64,000 nt of DNA from a virus. Lineage: Duplodnaviria; Caudoviricetes. The stretch's first letter is position 1, and each line of letters opens with the position of its first letter. The position numbers were made by a program, and so were the translations under genes. The stretch spans positions 41,908 to 105,907 of IMG/VR virus record IMGVR_UViG_3300037455_000462. One strand, 5' to 3'. Positions 19,827-64,000 of this stretch are shown here, piece after piece. The notes under the pieces are model-generated. The model saw nothing but the letters and a program-made list of their open reading frames with translations. It was not told the DNA's origin and did not search any database.

Positions 19827-20228
19827 CTACAGATTGAAATACGAATTGACTGTATCATATATGGAAGCCATACACGCATCAAGTTTGTCTATATAAACAA
19901 ACCTGCTGTCGATGTCGAACTTGGCATCCTTCCACGCGATTCTGTAAGTGACCGAGGTTTCGATGTGCGTGCCATCGGTCTTGAGGTTGTCATCGGGCTT
20001 GTTCATAACCTCGTATTCGTTGGTTATGATTCCCGTTATCTTTCCTTTGGAAACCGTAACGACATCGTTCACATCGTCATAACACTTGAAATACACCGTG
20101 TCGCCAATCGACAACTCGTGCCAACCGAATCTGTTGTTTGTCTGCGTGTCCTTTATGGCGTGCCTGCCTGCCTCCAATATGACACGGAGAGCGTTTTCCG
20201 TCTTTTCGAAATCTTTTTTATTGCCCAT
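19827..20228 (-). CDS. Hypothetical protein
   Basis: 133-aa ORF in operon. Confidence 0.65.
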   Translation of the reverse strand: MGNKKDFEKTENALRVILEAGRHAIKDTQTNNRFGWHELSIGDTVYFKCYDDVNDVVTVSKGKITGIITNEYEVMNKPDDNLKTDGTHIETSVTYRIAWKDAKFDIDSRFVYIDKLDACMASIYDTVNSYFNL

Positions 20229-21273
20229 TGATAAGTTTTTTTGCTATTTTCTTGATGTTCGATTTCACTTTGTCATCATATTCAAGCACATTGTCAACAT
20301 ACTTGTCAAGCATATCCTCTATGCTGACACACTCGCTCATACTGACTTTCGGCACATCTATAGTCAACGAACTTTTCTTCGGCACAAAATTGATGTTGTA
20401 AATGTCGGAGTTGTTGTTGATGTAGCCGTATATCTTGTGAAAACTCAATTTCGAAAGAAGGTCGGAATCAACGCAAATATCAATATACTTGCGTTTGCAG
20501 AACTCCTTGAATTCGCGAAGCGGAAGGTCTTTCACTTCCTCATAGTCAACTCTCTTGAACTCTGCCGACACGCCGTTCCTATAAAACTCTTCATCGCCGT
20601 TCTCTTTGACGCACATAACGCCTCTGTCGTTATCTCTGTCATTCTGCGACATCTGATATGGCGAACCCACATAGACTACGTTCTTGTAAGTCTGACGATG
20701 GTGTATGTGACCCGAATATATACGGCAGTCGAGTCGCGTGTCGTCCAAGTGGAGTTGGGATTCGGACTTGGTTCCAGAGGCGTTCATAGTGACACCGTTG
20801 AAATCGGCGTGGCAGACAACAATGTCGCAGTCATCCATACCGCAGAGCGTTTCGCTCAACAGACCGTTGTCGTTTATCCAAGGGACAAAGCCGACAACCT
20901 TGCCATTTGGCATAGCGATGCTTTTCGGCTCTTTGATTACACTGATGTTCGGTATATGCTTCAAGCAATCAATGGAAGTGATGTCGTTGCTGTCTTTTTC
21001 ATAGGCATCGTGGTTGCCGCAAAGCACATACACCTGCGAGAACATACGACCGAGTTTCTCGAAGATGTCCATAGTGAACGCCAACGTAGTAAGCCCGACC
21101 GTCTGTCTGTTGTCGAACACGTCCCCGCAATGTATGAGTATATCACCCTTGCGAGCCTTTTTCTCGAAAAGCGGGAACACGAATTTATCGAAGCATTCCC
21201 TAAAATGCTCCTCCCAAACTTTTGAATTGTTCTTTAATCCGAAATGCGTGTCGGAAATAAGCCAAATATTCAT
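20218..21273 (-). CDS. Recombination nuclease gp47/SbcD/Mre11-like
   Basis: SDTHFG, GDVFDNR, GNHD, SGHIH, YVGSPY. Confidence 0.9.
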   Translation of the reverse strand: MNIWLISDTHFGLKNNSKVWEEHFRECFDKFVFPLFEKKARKGDILIHCGDVFDNRQTVGLTTLAFTMDIFEKLGRMFSQVYVLCGNHDAYEKDSNDITSIDCLKHIPNISVIKEPKSIAMPNGKVVGFVPWINDNGLLSETLCGMDDCDIVVCHADFNGVTMNASGTKSESQLHLDDTRLDCRIYSGHIHHRQTYKNVVYVGSPYQMSQNDRDNDRGVMCVKENGDEEFYRNGVSAEFKRVDYEEVKDLPLREFKEFCKRKYIDICVDSDLLSKLSFHKIYGYINNNSDIYNINFVPKKSSLTIDVPKVSMSECVSIEDMLDKYVDNVLEYDDKVKSNIKKIAKKLINGQ

Positions 21274-21759
21274 TTAGAAAAGTTTTGACCACCCGTCATC
21301 GCAGACGAGCAGGTTGTTCAACAATGCTTTGTTTGTCGTGTATTTTGACAACTCCTCGTAGAGTTTCACTTTCGCGCCGTTTGGCAGGTCTTTGATTACG
21401 GAATCGTATTTGAGGTTGAAGTAGTCGCAATATATAAGCAATATATTACTCAACGTGGTTATGTTCTTAAACACCACATATATCCTCAAAAGGTTCATAG
21501 GTATGTCGGCGATTCCGAGTTTGCGGGAGTCAACATTGAATATGTCATTGCAGTCGCGAATGTCCATAGTCTTTATGTAATTCACAACGCTCTCCTCGAT
21601 TTCATCGACAACGCCGCCATAGTCGCTGACGGCGAACACATCCATATCCTCCGCCATAACACGCTTCATCGAAGATATGCTGTCCGATTCGGCAAAGGAA
21701 TCCTTGTCGTTGTTGTAGTAGATTCCGCGCAGTTTATTAACGTCAATTCTTTTTCCCAT
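21274..21759 (-). CDS. Hypothetical protein ending in KLF
   Basis: 161-aa ORF overlapping the end of the helicase N-half gene. Confidence 0.7.
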   Translation of the reverse strand: MGKRIDVNKLRGIYYNNDKDSFAESDSISSMKRVMAEDMDVFAVSDYGGVVDEIEESVVNYIKTMDIRDCNDIFNVDSRKLGIADIPMNLLRIYVVFKNITTLSNILLIYCDYFNLKYDSVIKDLPNGAKVKLYEELSKYTTNKALLNNLLVCDDGWSKLF

Positions 21760-21853
21760 TTTCTATCATTTTGAAAAACTCACCAATGGGTATCTTCATA
21801 GTTTCGCCCGTCCTTTTGTTGCGCACACAGATTTCCGATTCTCCGCAAACGCA
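21743..21853 (-). mobile_element. Atypically short split-intein N-fragment (36 aa)
   Basis: Cys1 directly after the P-loop Lys; intein block A pattern CxxGxSxI. Confidence 0.75.
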
Positions 21854-22441
21854 CTTACCAATATTGGACTGACCAACATAGCATACGAGTGTTTTCTCGT
21901 CATAGCCGCCCGTGATACCATCCATATATTTATAGCCGCTGCGGATTTTCTTGCTCGTGTCTTGGTAGTGCGAATCTGGCTCAAAGAAGTCCAATCCCTC
22001 GTCAAAATTGAAATTAACCCCGCTCGAAGAGCCAACCGTATCAACAATGCGCTGAACAACCGTGTCAACGTTGTCGATGTTGACATTCGTCATCTTGGCG
22101 AACTCAACACTGTCAACAAGATTCTTCTGCAAGAACTTCCACTTAATCCAAGACTCCGCCGTTTTCTTCAGCCACTCGCTGTCGTAGTTGTCCGTGTCTA
22201 TCGCGTAAACGGTTTCTATGAGTTCGTCTTCGATGTCAAGTTTGTCGCTATCGTGAACCAAAGCCTTCATTTGGTTCTCTGTCGGGACTTCCTTGTATTT
22301 GTCATAGAAACGCTTGGCAATGAGAATAAGGGCGGAGAGCGTCTTGTTGGAAAAGAAACTCTTGTCAACATTCTTGTAGTAAGTAGGGTTGTCCAAAATA
22401 TATTTGAACACCACGCTCTCATTAGTCGTCACTTTCTCCAT
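21743..22441 (-). CDS. Replicative helicase gp41/DnaB N-terminal half fused to a short split-intein N-fragment
   Basis: gp41-like N-terminus ending at Walker A GQSNIGK, then CVCGESEICVRNKRTGE...IPIGEFF and a stop. Confidence 0.8.
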   Translation of the reverse strand: MEKVTTNESVVFKYILDNPTYYKNVDKSFFSNKTLSALILIAKRFYDKYKEVPTENQMKALVHDSDKLDIEDELIETVYAIDTDNYDSEWLKKTAESWIKWKFLQKNLVDSVEFAKMTNVNIDNVDTVVQRIVDTVGSSSGVNFNFDEGLDFFEPDSHYQDTSKKIRSGYKYMDGITGGYDEKTLVCYVGQSNIGKCVCGESEICVRNKRTGETMKIPIGEFFKMIENGKKN

Positions 22442-22691
22442 CCCACGGTGTGTTTAATATTGTTATGTTATCGTCCTTGACTTTTATGTTACCGCGATTG
22501 ACAAGTTCCTGCATAAGTTCGGAGAGTATCTCATCATCCGCACTCACAACCTCGGACAACTTGCCGTACTTGAATTTCTGACCGCAATACACGACCATAT
22601 CATACAGCAGGTCATCCGAAGTCGGATAGGTGCTTTCATACTGATAAGTTCCCGTTATGTACTTGACGGGAACTTTGTTATAGTCAATCAT
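22422..22691 (-). CDS. Hypothetical protein
   Basis: 89-aa ORF between uvsX-C and the helicase gene. Confidence 0.65.
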   Translation of the reverse strand: MIDYNKVPVKYITGTYQYESTYPTSDDLLYDMVVYCGQKFKYGKLSEVVSADDEILSELMQELVNRGNIKVKDDNITILNTPWDGESDD

Positions 22692-23371
22692 TAGTTTTCA
22701 AGTTGTTCTTTGATGAGGGTGTCGGTGTCGATGTCATCGCCGTCACCGTCCTCATCCAAAATGGTTTCAATTTCGTCATTGTTCTTGCTGTCGCTGTAAG
22801 CGAATATGCCTTTGATTACGTTTTCGTCAAGGCGTTTAATCGCATCCTCGTTCCAAACTTTAGCGGAACACACCTCCGACCATTTGAACGGTTCTAACCG
22901 ATGGTCGGTGCAGATATACCTGCCGCTGTCTGACGGTTGGAAATAGACGTTCTCGTCAAGCGGGTGCTGACGGCATTTCTCCTTCTCGGCATCGCCGAGT
23001 TTGGCGTATTCCTTCGCCGTGATGAACTTTCCGCGACCGATACCGCAGGCATCCCAACTCATATACTCCTGCAAGCCGACAAATCGGTTCATACCTTTTT
23101 GGAACGAGATATGGAACTTCACGACAGTCGGTACGCAGAAGCGGTTTTTCTGCGGCTTGGCTGTGACAATGATACCCGTTTGGTCTGTGCCTTCCTTCAG
23201 TTTGGCTTTCGTCATATTGAGAATGATGGACGCGCCGTACACAACACCAGTGTTATGATTGATGACACCATTATCTGTGATGTAATGCTGAACTTCAGCA
23301 ACAGTCAAATCATTAACTTTCATACAAGAGCCTTCTTGTACACTTTTTACCTTTAATGTCTTTAATTGCAT
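22691..23371 (-). CDS. uvsX: Split-intein C-fragment (40 aa, 23252-23371) plus UvsX/RecA C-terminal half
   Basis: VNDLTV...HYITDNGVINHN then TGVVYGASII...KNRF. Confidence 0.9.
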   Translation of the reverse strand: MQLKTLKVKSVQEGSCMKVNDLTVAEVQHYITDNGVINHNTGVVYGASIILNMTKAKLKEGTDQTGIIVTAKPQKNRFCVPTVVKFHISFQKGMNRFVGLQEYMSWDACGIGRGKFITAKEYAKLGDAEKEKCRQHPLDENVYFQPSDSGRYICTDHRLEPFKWSEVCSAKVWNEDAIKRLDENVIKGIFAYSDSKNNDEIETILDEDGDGDDIDTDTLIKEQLEN

Positions 23372-24323
23372 ATTCTACTGCTTTTTTAATTGATTGTATG
23401 TTATTATTTTTTACATATAAATCGTTTACCCTTATTATTCCCAAAATATCATCGCGCACAGACATAATAACTTTATCTCTAATTTCGTCATATTCCATAT
23501 TATGCCAATATCCACCGTCATATTCCAATATGATAATACCATTATCGCATTTTATATACCCGTCACACACAATATACTGTTTATTATATACATCACACAA
23601 CATTGTATTTTGCACATTAATTCCAAAATGTAAATGTTTCACGTCAGATAAAAATGAAGACAAATTATCAAAAAACACATTCTCCTCCTTTGAAGAATAA
23701 GGTGTCCGCTCTCTCCAAAATTTATCTGGATTATCAATATATAACGCTTTTTTACTTTCAGACATTTTTTGAATATGTCTATAATACTCTTGTTCATCGG
23801 AATAACATTCTTTACAAGAACCGTTATATTTTCTAATAATCTTCTTGGATTCTTCTTCGCTAAAGCCAAGACCAATCCAATACGCAACAGACCAAACACT
23901 CATTTGGGATAACTCCTCGCGGCTATATTTTTGATTTTTAATTTCTGTAAACTTTTTTTGATAACCCGACACCATTTTAATAGCATCGTCTTCAGAATAC
24001 CCACGAGATATATAGTATTCAGCACATCGTTTACTATTTCTACGCTGTTGATATAGAATACGCCTTTTTATATCCGAAACATCATCCCATCCCATAGATT
24101 TCCAATAATCTATGGAAACAACACTTGAATTCTTACCATTACGCAATGACTTCATATATTTTGATATATTGTCATATACAGTCCTCATACGTTTTGTTTT
24201 TGATGTTTTGAATATATCATACAACAATTCTATGTGGTTTCTATTGTCTAAATTGACATTCGGGAATGAAACTGATATGTATTTTAAAAAATCGTTATAA
24301 TTTTTGATGTCATCGTATTTCAT
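23313..24323 (-). CDS. Free-standing homing endonuclease, Vsr/DUF559-like
   Basis: Repeated YW..G.S helices and C-terminal CDGY...ILEYDGGYWH; AT-rich; lies between the intein halves. Confidence 0.8.
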   Translation of the reverse strand: MKYDDIKNYNDFLKYISVSFPNVNLDNRNHIELLYDIFKTSKTKRMRTVYDNISKYMKSLRNGKNSSVVSIDYWKSMGWDDVSDIKRRILYQQRRNSKRCAEYYISRGYSEDDAIKMVSGYQKKFTEIKNQKYSREELSQMSVWSVAYWIGLGFSEEESKKIIRKYNGSCKECYSDEQEYYRHIQKMSESKKALYIDNPDKFWRERTPYSSKEENVFFDNLSSFLSDVKHLHFGINVQNTMLCDVYNKQYIVCDGYIKCDNGIIILEYDGGYWHNMEYDEIRDKVIMSVRDDILGIIRVNDLYVKNNNIQSIKKAVEYAIKDIKGKKCTRRLLYES

Positions 24324-24357
24324 TGTACTTTATTTTTAATATTTATAAAGTACAATG
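24321..24357 (-). promoter_or_regulatory. 13-bp hairpin covering the endonuclease start codon, overlapping a late promoter (24340-24347)
   Basis: CATTGTACTTTAT (24321-24333) / ATAAAGTACAATG (24345-24357). Confidence 0.8.
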
Positions 24358-24364
24358 CGGCGGA

Positions 24365-25345
24365 TTATTCATTAAAAATGAATTGTTTTACAATATCGCC
24401 GTTAATCAAATCTCTTGCATATACCCAATTAGAATCATCATTAACATCGTCAGTTTCTCCTCCAACATAAAAACGATGGTCTTCCGAGCAAGTTATGACA
24501 CTACCATCTTCAAACTCAATAGTATATGTGTTTTTTTCAAATTCCCAAGTTTTCAATATCTCCTTATTTCCGCATAATGTCATAACTTCATCACCAACTC
24601 GTATATCCTCAATGTTTTTATACAAACCATCGGACATCAAAACTTTTGAACCAGGTATCAAACATCCACCGCTCTGTATGTCCTGCGAATACAAGTCAAG
24701 GGTTTTGTATGTGTGGTTGGTGAACACGAAAGTCCCGCCGATGATTCCGAGTTTGGACATCATAATTCTGAACACGGACTTCATCATCTTGGCGCGGCTC
24801 ATATCAGCCTTGTCTGTGTAAGCCTTCGCATCGTCAATCTCTTTCTGCGAGGCAAGGTTGCCCGCGCTGTCAAGGGCTATGAAAAGTTTCGGAATCTCGT
24901 TGCCGTCCGATTTCTCCTCGATGAGTTTGTCAAGGATGTTTGTCACATTGCTTCTGAACTCTTGGATTGTCTGCACGGGTTCGTAGCGCATCATATCCAA
25001 GTCGATTCCGAAATTGGACGCAAGCGTGTCGTCAACGGCGTTCTCGCTGTCGTAGAATATGACGAAATATCCCATCTTCTGCGCCTCTCGGCACATATTG
25101 AGCAGAAGGTAGGTTTTGCCGACACCCGACTCACCAGACAGACAAACACTTCTGTTGTTCGGAACGCCTTTCAAAAGGCTTCCGCTCATACAAGCGTTGA
25201 GAATGTAGTTGCCCGTATGGATATACTCGGTGATTTTTGAAGTGCCTCCGCCCTCGGACAGAAGTGCGCCGAATTTGGAGTTCTTGTTCATTTCCTTGTT
25301 GAGGTCGGCGATTGAAAACACGCCGCCTTTTGACTGTTTTGCCAT
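24365..25345 (-). CDS. uvsX: UvsX/RecA N-terminal half plus split-intein N-fragment (99 aa, from 24664)
   Basis: GESGVGKT, YDSE, LDSAGNLAS, TNHTY, then SGG followed by CLIPGSKV...CSEDHRF. Confidence 0.92.
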   Translation of the reverse strand: MAKQSKGGVFSIADLNKEMNKNSKFGALLSEGGGTSKITEYIHTGNYILNACMSGSLLKGVPNNRSVCLSGESGVGKTYLLLNMCREAQKMGYFVIFYDSENAVDDTLASNFGIDLDMMRYEPVQTIQEFRSNVTNILDKLIEEKSDGNEIPKLFIALDSAGNLASQKEIDDAKAYTDKADMSRAKMMKSVFRIMMSKLGIIGGTFVFTNHTYKTLDLYSQDIQSGGCLIPGSKVLMSDGLYKNIEDIRVGDEVMTLCGNKEILKTWEFEKNTYTIEFEDGSVITCSEDHRFYVGGETDDVNDDSNWVYARDLINGDIVKQFIFNE

Positions 25346-62889: not shown

Positions 62890-64000
62890 ATGACCGATAA
62901 AGAATTACGAGACTTGTACATTTCATACCAAAATAGTGGTACAAGTATGTCATTTAATGAATGGATTGAAACACAAGAAAAAGAAAAATCTTGCGAATGT
63001 GATAAGCATACGGATTCTTCTGATAAAAACGAAGAATGTGTAGCAAAACCTATAGTTAATATATGTTGTCCTCCAAAAAAAGTTATTGGTAGGGGTAAAC
63101 AAGGCATACAAGGCGTGCAAGGTGTTCAAGGATTTTGTGGATTACAAGGTGGTCAAGGCATCCAAGGTGTTCAAGGTTTGCAGGGTCAACAAGGAATCCA
63201 AGGTGAACAAGGCATCCAAGGTGTTCAAGGCTTGCAGGGCGAACAAGGAATCCAAGGTGTTCAAGGCTTGCAGGGTGAACAAGGAATCCAAGGTGTTCAA
63301 GGCTTGCAGGGCAAGCAAGGCATCCAAGGTGTTCAAGGTCAACAAGGAATCCAAGGCTTGCAGGGCGAGCAAGGCATCCAAGGTGTTCAAGGTCAACAAG
63401 GAATCCAAGGCTTGCAGGGCGAGCAAGGCATCCAAGGCGAACAAGGCATCCAAGGTGTTCAAGGTTTGCAGGGTGAACAAGGAATCCAAGGTGTTCAAGG
63501 TTTGCAGGGTGAACAAGGAATCCAAGGTGTTCAAGGTCAACAAGGTATTCAAGGTGTTCAAGGCAAGCAGGGAACACAAGGCATCCAAGGTGTTCAAGGT
63601 TTGCAGGGTGAACAAGGAATCCAAGGTGTTCAAGGTTTGCAGGGCGAACAAGGTCAACAAGGCATCCAAGGAGTTCAAGGCTTGCAGGGCGAACAAGGAA
63701 TTCAAGGTGTTCAAGGTCAACAAGGCATCCAAGGTGTTCAAGGTTTGCAGGGTGAACAAGGAATCCAAGGTGTTCAAGGTTTGCAGGGCGAACAAGGAAT
63801 CCAAGGAGTTCAAGGCTTGCAGGGCGAACAAGGAATCCAAGGAGTTCAAGGCTTGCAGGGTGAACAAGGAATCCAAGGTGTTCAAGGCAAGCAGGGAACA
63901 CAAGGCATCCAAGGTGTTCAAGGCAAGCAGGGAACACAAGGCATCCAAGGTGTTCAAGGTCAACAAGGAATTCAAGGTGTTCAAGGTTTGCAGGGTGAAC
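62890..64000 (+). CDS. Collagen-like (Gly-X-Gln)n fibre protein (3' end outside window)
   Basis: ATG at 62890, Cys-rich N-terminus, then uninterrupted G-X-Q triplets from ~63094 to the window end. Confidence 0.85.

What the first reader, a model, noticed from the sequence alone, without database searches (positions are those of the whole stretch)
21743..22441. Helicase gene ends in a 36-aa split-intein N-fragment with no partner in the window
Seen: the gp41-like ORF stops matching helicase at Walker A GQSNIGK and continues CVCGESEICVRNKRTGETMKIPIGEFFKMIENGKKN*. The next genes are an unrelated ORF and gp47, and I found no intein C-fragment/helicase C-half in the 64 kb. Known: the gp41 P-loop is an intein insertion site; typical split inteins have roughly 100-aa N-fragments with the partner close by, and very short N-fragments are the rare atypical class known mainly from terminases. 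Inference: the essential helicase is assembled by trans-splicing from distant loci. Such a short fragment would also be useful for protein semisynthesis.
Basis: partly seen in the sequence, partly recalled or inferred. Interest (0 to 1): 0.8.

Follow-up and report, generated by a model that had tools for sequence, protein, structure and literature searches.

The report
Remote atypical split intein in phage helicase
A huge uncultivated phage encodes the front half of its only replicative helicase with a 36-residue piece of a self-splicing element (intein), and the matching back half lies about 75 kb away in its closest complete relative; it is a real, widespread new member of the known rare class of lopsided split inteins.

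Summary
Window 21743-22441 (-) encodes a 232-aa gp41/DnaB-like helicase N-half. It stops at Walker A (GQSNIGK) and continues with a 36-aa Cys1/block-A tail.

No helicase C-half or intein C-piece exists in the window or in the whole 105.9-kb contig. That contig is only about 33% of a huge Lak-like phage genome.

The partner exists in relatives. In a 413-kb record rated 100% complete (N-half 92% identical), a 406-aa gene lies 74.6 kb downstream on the same strand. It encodes a 130-aa intein C-piece ending CHN|S, followed by the helicase C-half. Our contig is collinear with that record and ends about 14 kb short of the partner's position.

- The two exteins abut exactly on one helicase profile (positions 366 and 367).
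- The C-piece folds as a HINT domain lacking its first 18-28 residues. The best structural match is the VidaL intein.
- 32 N-half clusters and 51 C-half clusters keep the catalytic residues.
- The complete relative has no intact DnaB-type helicase.

Atypically split inteins are already known (AceL/GOS TerL, VidaL, PolB16), so this is a new member rather than a new kind. First readers in this scan noted what look like the same GQSNIGK| tail in helicases of other genomes; I checked none of those notes.

The parts
21743..22441 (-). Gene for the helicase N-precursor (232 aa): N-extein plus IntN plus stop codon
   Evidence: ORF list and sequence. 32 homologous clusters have the same length and the same end.
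21854..22441 (-). N-extein, residues 1-196: the helical N-terminal domain of a gp41/DnaB-like helicase, then the first strand and Walker A up to GQSNIGK
   Evidence: phrog_19 profile 163-366, E 1.1e-12. 43% identity to the intact LR756500 helicase, residues 11-202. The AF2 model has a confident helical domain at residues 7-141, and residues 146-199 are unstructured on their own.
21746..21853 (-). IntN, residues 197-232 (36 aa): Cys1, block A (C-V-C-G-E-S-x-I), a beta hairpin and helix alpha-1 (I-G-E-F-F-K-M-I). The split is at the S2 position, after the first helix
   Evidence: C197 is invariant in 32 of 32 clusters, and the tail pattern is conserved. AF2 predicts strand 203-207, strand 214-218 and helix 219-231. 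The partner's IntC model aligns to inteins only from their residue 18-28 onward, so it lacks exactly this segment.
21274..21759 (-). Downstream 161-aa ORF that overlaps the end of the IntN gene by 17 nt. It is neither the partner nor an endonuclease by any search run
   Evidence: No Pfam or PHROG hit. BLASTP against the ORF in the same position in LR756500 is not significant.
20218..21273 (-). gp47/Mre11-like phosphoesterase. It shows that the gene order helicase, small ORF, gp47 is kept as in LR756500, where the helicase is intact
   Evidence: Metallophos E 5e-14. Gene order in L002.

Best explanation
The ORF is one of two precursor genes of the phage's replicative gp41/DnaB-like helicase. 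It makes the helicase N-terminal domain and Walker A up to Gly-Lys, fused to the 36-residue N-piece (Cys1, two strands and the first helix) of a class-1 mini-intein of about 166 aa that is split close to its N-terminus (atypical split, S2 type). A second gene, outside this contig fragment, makes the remaining intein piece of about 130 aa (block B C-A-D-x-H, block F, terminal His-Asn), followed by Ser+1 and the helicase C-half. After translation the two intein pieces would dock and complete the HINT fold, and protein trans-splicing would join Lys196 to Ser+1. That would restore the P-loop GQSNIGK-S and a full-length helicase. Shown here: the anatomy of the N-gene, its conservation, the partner in relatives, the exact abutment of the exteins, the HINT fold of the partner piece, and the absence of an intact helicase in a complete relative. 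Inferred: that this phage carries the partner (expected about 14 kb beyond the contig's left end) and that splicing actually occurs. The intein is related to a contiguous intein at the TerL P-loop of a related huge phage. I infer that it spread between GK|S/T P-loop sites and that its halves were later uncoupled by genome rearrangement.
For: The N-gene ends at GK|C with a conserved 30-42-aa tail in 32 clusters.

Partner genes in relatives:
- G001, 299,129-300,349 (-), 406 aa, with a 130-aa IntC ending CHN|S. The N-gene is at 374,983-375,678 (-), so the two are 74.6 kb apart on the same strand.
- G002, N-gene at 166.8 kb and partner at 324.5 kb on the same strand.
- G003 shows the same layout as G001, but it is 100% identical to G001 over the 12 kb compared, so it is not independent.

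PHROG phrog_19 places N-half residues 7-196 on profile 163-366, and partner residues 131-359 on profile 367-582. The two are exactly contiguous, and the intein parts stay unaligned. Pfam DnaB_C starts at profile position 37 in the partner.

Among 51 IntC-bearing partner clusters, C60, A61, D62, H64, D111, H129, N130 and S+1 are invariant.

The AF2 model of IntC has pLDDT 80. In the Foldseek PDB list the hits are inteins or the related BIL (bacterial intein-like) HINT domains. The best is VidaL 6vgv (E 9e-7, 31% identity), and the Cat atypical intein 6dsl_B ranks fifth. VIA-align gives Z 13.4 to VidaL, with model residues 18-132 on chain residues 28-143. Other inteins align from their residue 18-24 onward, so the first two strands and the helix are missing from IntC.

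The five best hits of IntC against PDB sequences are all inteins.

G001 (CheckV 100% complete) has one DnaB_C match only, the partner, so it has no intact helicase.

The G000 contig is collinear with G001 314,350-413,021, so the partner's position falls about 13.6 kb beyond the contig's end.

The same phage also carries a canonical split intein in UvsX, so trans-splicing is not an isolated oddity here.

IntC is 41% identical (E 6e-24) to a contiguous intein at the TerL P-loop of G002.
Against: The partner gene of this very phage has not been seen, because the contig is a 33% fragment. A relative at 87% N-half identity (G004, 192 kb, 70% complete) has no partner within its contig, so the position of the partner is not fixed. 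The block B Thr is replaced by Ala (C-A-D-x-H). IntN alone gives no significant match to PDB sequences, and its AF2 confidence is only 58-64. No experiment shows splicing. The only search for fused forms is, by the tool's own statement, weak evidence.
Confidence: 0.85

Rival explanations
1. The two halves associate through the intein pieces but are never covalently joined. On this reading the intein has become a mere dimerisation module for a two-chain helicase.
For: Splicing is untested. The block B Thr is replaced by Ala in all 51 partners. The P-loop would lie at the junction, so a non-covalent assembly cannot be excluded from sequence alone.
Against: Cys1 is invariant in 32 of 32 N-halves. 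The block B His, the block F Asp, the penultimate His, the terminal Asn and Ser+1 are invariant in 51 of 51 partners, across sequences only 43-50% identical. Those are the residues needed for splicing chemistry, and docking alone would not hold them fixed. A 166-aa domain left inside Walker A would probably block ATP binding.
Confidence: 0.06
2. The gene is a truncated remnant. The phage would have lost its helicase C-half and would rely on the host DnaB or on another helicase.
For: No C-half is present in 105.9 kb. G004 also lacks one in 192 kb.
Against: The contig is only about 33% complete. The N-half and its tail are conserved at the same length in 32 clusters. Both relatives that are at least 90% complete carry the partner. 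Collinearity places the partner just off the contig.
Confidence: 0.05
3. It is an assembly or sequencing artefact, such as a chimeric join or a frameshift inside an ordinary helicase gene.
For: The source is a metagenome-assembled contig, and I could not inspect read mapping.
Against: The same stop and the same tail recur in independent assemblies from three sources and in five IMG/VR records. The downstream synteny with gp47 is kept. The tail is in frame and has intein motifs.
Confidence: 0.01

Closest known systems
AceL TerL and GOS TerL, naturally atypically split inteins, and their engineered consensus Cat (PDB 6dsl)
   Same: Both have a short IntN and a long IntC. Known IntN lengths are 25 and 37 aa, and this one is 36 aa. 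The split comes after the first alpha-helix (S2 position, as described in PMC13014065). The host is a phage, and I recall the TerL insertion site as the P-loop too, but only the G002 TerL intein was checked here. The CatC chain is a structural match (Z 12.7) and a weak sequence match (E 0.015). A contiguous intein at the TerL P-loop of related phage G002 is 41% identical to the helicase IntC.
   Different: The host protein is the replicative helicase, not the terminase. Identity to CatC is only 24%. This intein has Cys1 and Ser+1. From memory, unverified here, AceL has Cys+1 and GOS has Ser1/Cys+1. The halves lie 75-157 kb apart in complete relatives.
VidaL intein (PDB 6vgv/6vgw), a naturally atypically split intein with a 16-aa IntN
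   Same: It is the best structural match of the partner's IntC: Foldseek E 9e-7, 31% identity, Z 13.4, rmsd 2.5 A over 110 residues. It is cysteine-dependent and has a long IntC.
   Different: VidaL is split after strand beta-2 (S1 position), giving 16 aa, whereas this intein is split after alpha-1 (S2 position), giving 36 aa (PMC13014065). Earlier notes of this scan place VidaL-type inteins in gp41 five residues earlier in Walker A (AG|TGVGKS), not at GK|S; I did not check that. I could not retrieve a paper that states VidaL's native host protein.
Fractured phage genes with canonical split inteins (gp41-1 to gp41-9, NrdJ-1, IMPDH-1; Dassa et al. 2009, PMC2677866)
   Same: A phage gp41-type helicase is made from two genes by a split intein. 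The paper's evolutionary model predicts a final step in which the two halves become uncoupled in the genome.
   Different: Those inteins have the canonical split, with an IntN of about 90-100 aa. They sit at other helicase positions (for example residue 356 of P-SSM2 gp41). Their halves are adjacent, usually with a free-standing endonuclease gene between them. Here the split is atypical, the site is the P-loop, no endonuclease is adjacent and the halves are far apart. The window's UvsX gene, in contrast, does show the classical fractured arrangement.
Cyanobacterial DnaE split intein, with the host gene halves at separate loci
   Same: An essential replication protein is encoded at two distant loci and, in the DnaE case, is known to be joined by trans-splicing (cited in PMC2677866).
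   Different: DnaE is a cellular gene with a canonical split (IntN about 100-120 aa) in the polymerase. Here the genome is that of a phage and the split is atypical.

Membership tests
Intein (HINT domain, class 1) | A nucleophile (Cys, Ser or Thr) as the first intein residue directly after the N-extein, with the block A pattern | tested here: met
   C197 follows GQSNIGK and is invariant in 32 of 32 clusters. The block A pattern C-V-C-G-[DE]-[ST]-x-[IV] is conserved.
Intein (HINT domain, class 1) | Block B His, block F, and block G ending His-Asn followed by Ser, Thr or Cys at +1 | tested here: met
   Tested on the partners from relatives. C-A-D-x-H (H64), M-Y-D (D111), H129-N130 and S131 are invariant in 51 of 51. 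The block B Thr is Ala. The partner of this phage itself is not in the contig.
Intein (HINT domain, class 1) | HINT fold | tested here: met
   AF2 model of the G001 IntC, pLDDT 80. The best structural matches are inteins, followed by the related BIL and Hedgehog HINT domains. VidaL gives Z 13.4, and 70 chains reach Z of 8 or more. The fold is complete only with the IntN segment added; modelling the two chains together was not possible with the tools.
Intein (HINT domain, class 1) | The flanks form one continuous host protein once the intein is removed | tested here: met
   On phrog_19 the N-extein ends at profile position 366 and the C-extein starts at 367. The intact LR756500 helicase reads GIGK-SIW at that point.
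Intein (HINT domain, class 1) | Protein splicing activity | not testable with these tools
   This needs co-expression of the two precursors and detection of the ligated product.
Naturally atypically split intein (short IntN, long IntC) | IntN of about 15-37 aa and IntC longer than 100 aa, on separate genes | tested here: met
   IntN is 36 aa here and 30-42 aa in the family. IntC is 119-168 aa, and 130 aa in G001. The known range is 15-37 aa (PMC13014065).
Naturally atypically split intein (short IntN, long IntC) | The partner gene is present in the same genome | tested here: inconclusive
   It is absent from the 105.9-kb contig, which is 33% complete. It is present in both relatives that are at least 90% complete (G001 and G002). 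Collinearity puts it about 14 kb beyond the contig's end.
VidaL family (S1-type split) | Split after strand beta-2, with an IntN of about 16 aa | tested here: not met
   IntN is 36 aa and includes the first helix (predicted helix 219-231). IntC aligns to VidaL only from chain residue 28. Identity is 29-31%.
Fractured gene arrangement (Dassa 2009) | Both halves adjacent, usually with a free-standing homing endonuclease gene between them | tested here: not met
   The next gene is an unannotatable 161-aa ORF, followed by gp47. The halves are 74.6 kb apart in G001 and 157 kb apart in G002.

The most novel reading that the evidence does not exclude
This would be an undescribed and abundant family of S2-type, Cys1/Ser+1 atypically split inteins at the GK|S point of the replicative helicase of Lak-like huge phages. 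It would derive from a TerL P-loop intein by ectopic spread between P-loops. Its two genes are permanently uncoupled by 75-157 kb, so the phage's only helicase can form only after two separately transcribed products meet. Such an arrangement could also serve as a timing or dosage control of replication.
Probability: 0.35. Interest if true: 0.55.

Novelty: new member of a known kind. Interest (0 to 1): 0.42.

Why it matters
Natural atypically split inteins are few: AceL TerL, GOS TerL, VidaL and PolB16 are the ones named in the papers I could read. They are valued for protein semisynthesis and live-cell protein editing, because natural ones tend to be better behaved than artificially split ones. 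This family adds a fifth lineage with dozens of natural variants (32 IntN clusters and more than 50 IntC clusters) that could be mined for kinetics, orthogonality and tolerance of the flanking sequence. At 30-42 aa, however, the N-piece is less convenient for peptide synthesis than the 15-25-aa ones.

Biologically, it shows that huge phages tolerate having their only replicative helicase encoded at two loci 75-157 kb apart. That is the 'uncoupled' end state predicted by the fractured-gene model, here in a virus rather than a cell. For annotation, a helicase N-half like this one should not be called a pseudogene or a misassembly.

Tried and rejected
The metagenome-contig scan was not used.
- The partner was sought in the own contig with the DnaB_C HMM, with tblastn of two intact helicases, and with the close relative's partner. 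Nothing was found.
- IntN alone (36 aa) against PDB sequences gave only chance hits.
- The search for longer, fused forms of the N-half found one intact 433-aa helicase at 38% identity and no contiguous-intein form. The tool itself calls this weak evidence.
- G004 (N-half 87% identical, 192 kb, 70% complete) has no partner. It shares no collinear DNA with the G001 regions tested, apart from a multi-copy repeat family, so the 75-kb spacing cannot be generalised.
- BLASTP of the 161-aa downstream ORF against the ORF in the same position in LR756500 was not significant, so I do not claim homology.
- Papers that would state VidaL's native host and the gene layout of AceL/GOS TerL are not held (PMC7275667, PMC7232844, PMC4661395). 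Searches for 'T4Lh' and 'Lake Vida' found nothing relevant. My recollection that VidaL came from a T4-like helicase is therefore unverified.
A3 contained 11 N-truncated intein-free helicases and was replaced by A4.

Full report
**1. What is in the sequence**

The ORF at window 21743-22441 (- strand) encodes 232 aa. Residues 7-196 match the PHROG family of DnaB-like replicative helicases (phrog_19, profile positions 163-366, E 1.1e-12). They are also 43% identical to the N-half of an intact 435-aa helicase of the huge phage LR756500.

The match ends at Walker A, GQSNIGK (K196). In LR756500 the sequence continues GIGK-SIW.... Here it continues with Cys197 and 35 more residues before the stop.

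The tail has the intein block A pattern, C-V-C-G-E-S-x-I, followed by an I-G-E-F-F helix motif. AlphaFold2, run with the family alignment, predicts strand 203-207, strand 214-218 and helix 219-231 for the tail (pLDDT about 60). It predicts a confident helical N-domain at residues 7-141.

Downstream lie an unrelated 161-aa ORF that overlaps by 17 nt, and a gp47/Mre11-like gene.

**2. The tail is neither chance, nor a pseudogene, nor an artefact**

A search of 5.8 billion proteins found 32 clusters at 43-95% identity. With one 172-aa exception, which I left out of the alignment as a probable fragment, they are 226-238 aa long and come from ENA, JGI and Logan assemblies. In the alignment of 32 sequences (the window's protein plus 31 of the clusters), every sequence ends in the same way. 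Cys197, Val198, Asn208 and Ile219 are invariant, Cys199, Thr211 and Phe222 are nearly so, and the tail is 30-42 aa long with a median of 34.

Five IMG/VR records carry the same gene with a stop at the same place.

The search for longer forms gave one intact helicase at 38% identity and no fused-intein form. The tool describes that result as weak evidence.

**3. Where the partner is**

The window is the last 64 kb of a 105,907-bp viral contig that CheckV rates about 33% complete. Its relatives are huge phages, LR756500-LR756504 and the Lak phages of Prevotella.

No helicase C-half and no intein C-piece is present anywhere in the contig. The only intein signal on it belongs to UvsX (see section 8).

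A search with the C-half of the intact LR756500 helicase found many proteins of 362-406 aa. Each has an N-terminal extension of 119-168 aa that ends [IL]-L-S-H-N, directly followed by S-I-[WFY]-L and the helicase C-domain. These are the expected partners.

| Record | Size, completeness | N-half identity to ours | N-gene | Partner gene | Distance |
|---|---|---|---|---|---|
| G001 (IMGVR_UViG_3300031994_000001) | 413,021 bp, CheckV 100% | 92% | 374,983-375,678 (-) | 299,129-300,349 (-), 406 aa | 74.6 kb downstream, same strand |
| G002 | 387,654 bp, 93% | 45% | 166,794-167,471 (+) | 324,495-325,823 (+) | 157 kb, same strand |

The G001 partner has a 130-aa IntC ending F-L-C-H-N|S-I-F. G003 shows the G001 layout, but it is 100% identical to G001 over the 12 kb compared, so it does not count separately.

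Our contig is collinear with G001 from 314,350 to the end of that record (blastn identity 64-86%). The contig's position 1 corresponds to about 313,900 in G001, so the partner's position falls about 13.6 kb beyond the contig's left end.

G004 (N-half 87% identical, 192 kb, 70% complete) has no partner on its contig and is not collinear with G001 in that region. The spacing is therefore not fixed across the group.

**4. Do the two pieces fit?**

- On the same PHROG profile, the N-half covers positions 163-366 and the G001 partner covers 367-582. The exteins abut exactly, and both intein parts stay unaligned. Pfam DnaB_C starts at profile position 37 in the partner, just behind Walker A.
- Among 51 partner clusters, the block B C-A-D-x-H (His64), the block F Asp111, His129-Asn130 and Ser+1 are invariant. 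The usual block B Thr is Ala.
- The AF2 model of the G001 IntC (pLDDT 80, pTM 0.75) matches inteins and the related BIL HINT domains in Foldseek's PDB list. VidaL is first (E 9e-7, 31% identity) and the atypical consensus intein Cat is fifth.
- VIA-align gives Z 13.4 to VidaL, with model residues 18-132 on chain residues 28-143. It gives Z 12-13 to the Npu and Ssp DnaB, gp41-1 and NpuDnaE inteins, which are aligned only from their residue 18-24 onward.

IntC therefore lacks precisely the first two strands and the helix that IntN carries. Together the pieces make a mini-intein of about 166 aa. It is split after the first helix, which is the S2 position as defined in PMC13014065.

**5. Is the split helicase the phage's real helicase?**

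In the 100%-complete G001 the only DnaB_C match is the partner (profile 37-252). The partner protein also matches only one place in that record. There is no intact copy.

LR756500 and the Lak phages carry an intact, intein-free helicase. Presence or absence of the intein is thus all-or-none: each genome has either both pieces or neither.

**6. Mechanism**

The best-supported reading is protein trans-splicing that joins Lys196 to Ser+1 and restores GQSNIGK-S. I put this at about 0.85.

Shown here are the anatomy, the conservation, the partner in relatives, the fold and the extein continuity. Inferred are the presence of the partner in this phage and the chemistry itself.

The rivals are assembly of the halves without splicing, a dead remnant, and an assembly artefact. 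All are disfavoured by the invariance of the catalytic residues, by the recurrence in independent assemblies, and by the collinearity argument.

**7. Origin**

The helicase IntC is 41% identical (E 6e-24) to a contiguous intein in the terminase large subunit of G002. That intein is inserted at the TerL P-loop, R-Q-S-G-K|C ... S-H-N|T. Its N-terminus shows the same C-x-x-x-S-T ... I-G-E-L-F pattern.

The two insertion sites resemble each other (Q-S-x-x-G-K|S/T). Transfer between P-loops is a reasonable inference, but I did not test it.

**8. Comparison with what is known**

Atypically split natural inteins are an established rare class: AceL TerL (25 aa), GOS TerL (37 aa), VidaL (16 aa) and PolB16 (15 aa) (PMC13014065, PMC10189870). 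Split inteins in phage gp41 genes are also known. Those have the canonical split, sit at other sites, and have adjacent halves with an endonuclease gene between them (PMC2677866). That paper predicted genomic uncoupling of the halves as the final evolutionary step.

The present case combines three features. The split is S2-type atypical, the site is GK|S of the helicase, and the loci are uncoupled within a phage genome. I file it as a new member of a known kind.

First-reader notes of this scan describe what appears to be the same GQSNIGK| tail of 34-36 aa in at least three other genomes. Other notes and follow-up reports describe VidaL-type 13-16-aa pieces in gp41 helicases at a different Walker A point. 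I did not check those notes, and they do not count as evidence.

**9. Limits**

Several key papers are not held, so VidaL's native host is unverified. No two-chain model could be made.

Noticed in passing
window 22691-25345 (- strand): The UvsX/RecA-like recombinase is a classical 'fractured gene'. ORF 24365-25345 is UvsX residues 1-227 plus a canonical IntN of about 100 aa (...QSGG|C-L-I-P-G...). ORF 23313-24323 is a free-standing 336-aa gene. ORF 22691-23371 starts with an IntC of about 40 aa ending V-I-N-H-N|T, then the UvsX C-part. The close relative G001 has an intact, intein-free UvsX (...QSGG-TG...), so a 1.4-kb element is present here and absent there.
   Followed up: partly
window 23313-24323 (- strand): The 336-aa ORF between the UvsX halves has no Pfam or PHROG hit. 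The protein-atlas neighbours are viral DUF559/Vsr-like and NUMOD3 proteins (score 0.94, 147 shared features, so a lead only). That would fit the Vsr-like free-standing homing endonucleases of Dassa et al. 2009. It contains an E-Y-D-G-G-Y-W-H motif.
   Followed up: partly
L013:913-3294 (+) = G002:C1:114,190-116,571: The terminase large subunit (793 aa) of a related 388-kb phage carries a contiguous intein at its P-loop (R-Q-S-G-K|C ... S-H-N|T). It has an extra segment of about 40 aa at the position where the helicase intein is split, and it is 41% identical to the helicase IntC. G002 also has a further weak intein signal at about 273.1-273.4 kb in a 492-aa frame, which I did not examine.
   Followed up: partly
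window about 63,000-64,000 (contig 105,000-105,907) and G001 411,200-413,021: Both this contig and the 413-kb relative end inside the same array of diverged repeats (many overlapping blastn matches at 64-68% identity). The assemblies probably broke at this repeat.
   Followed up: no
window 21274-21759 (- strand): The 161-aa ORF just downstream of the IntN gene overlaps it by 17 nt and ends in W-S-K-L-F. The ORF in the same position next to the intact helicase of LR756500 ends in K-K-L-F. The two are not detectably homologous by BLASTP. Other readers have noted the L-F tails.
   Followed up: partly
L015:9,890-10,980 (G001 about 325.9-327.0 kb) and G004 14-60 kb: A segment of about 300-700 bp from G001 matches more than 50 places in G004 at 64-85% identity. 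This is a highly multiplied gene family or domain in these huge phages, possibly the tagged protein family described in earlier notes.
   Followed up: no
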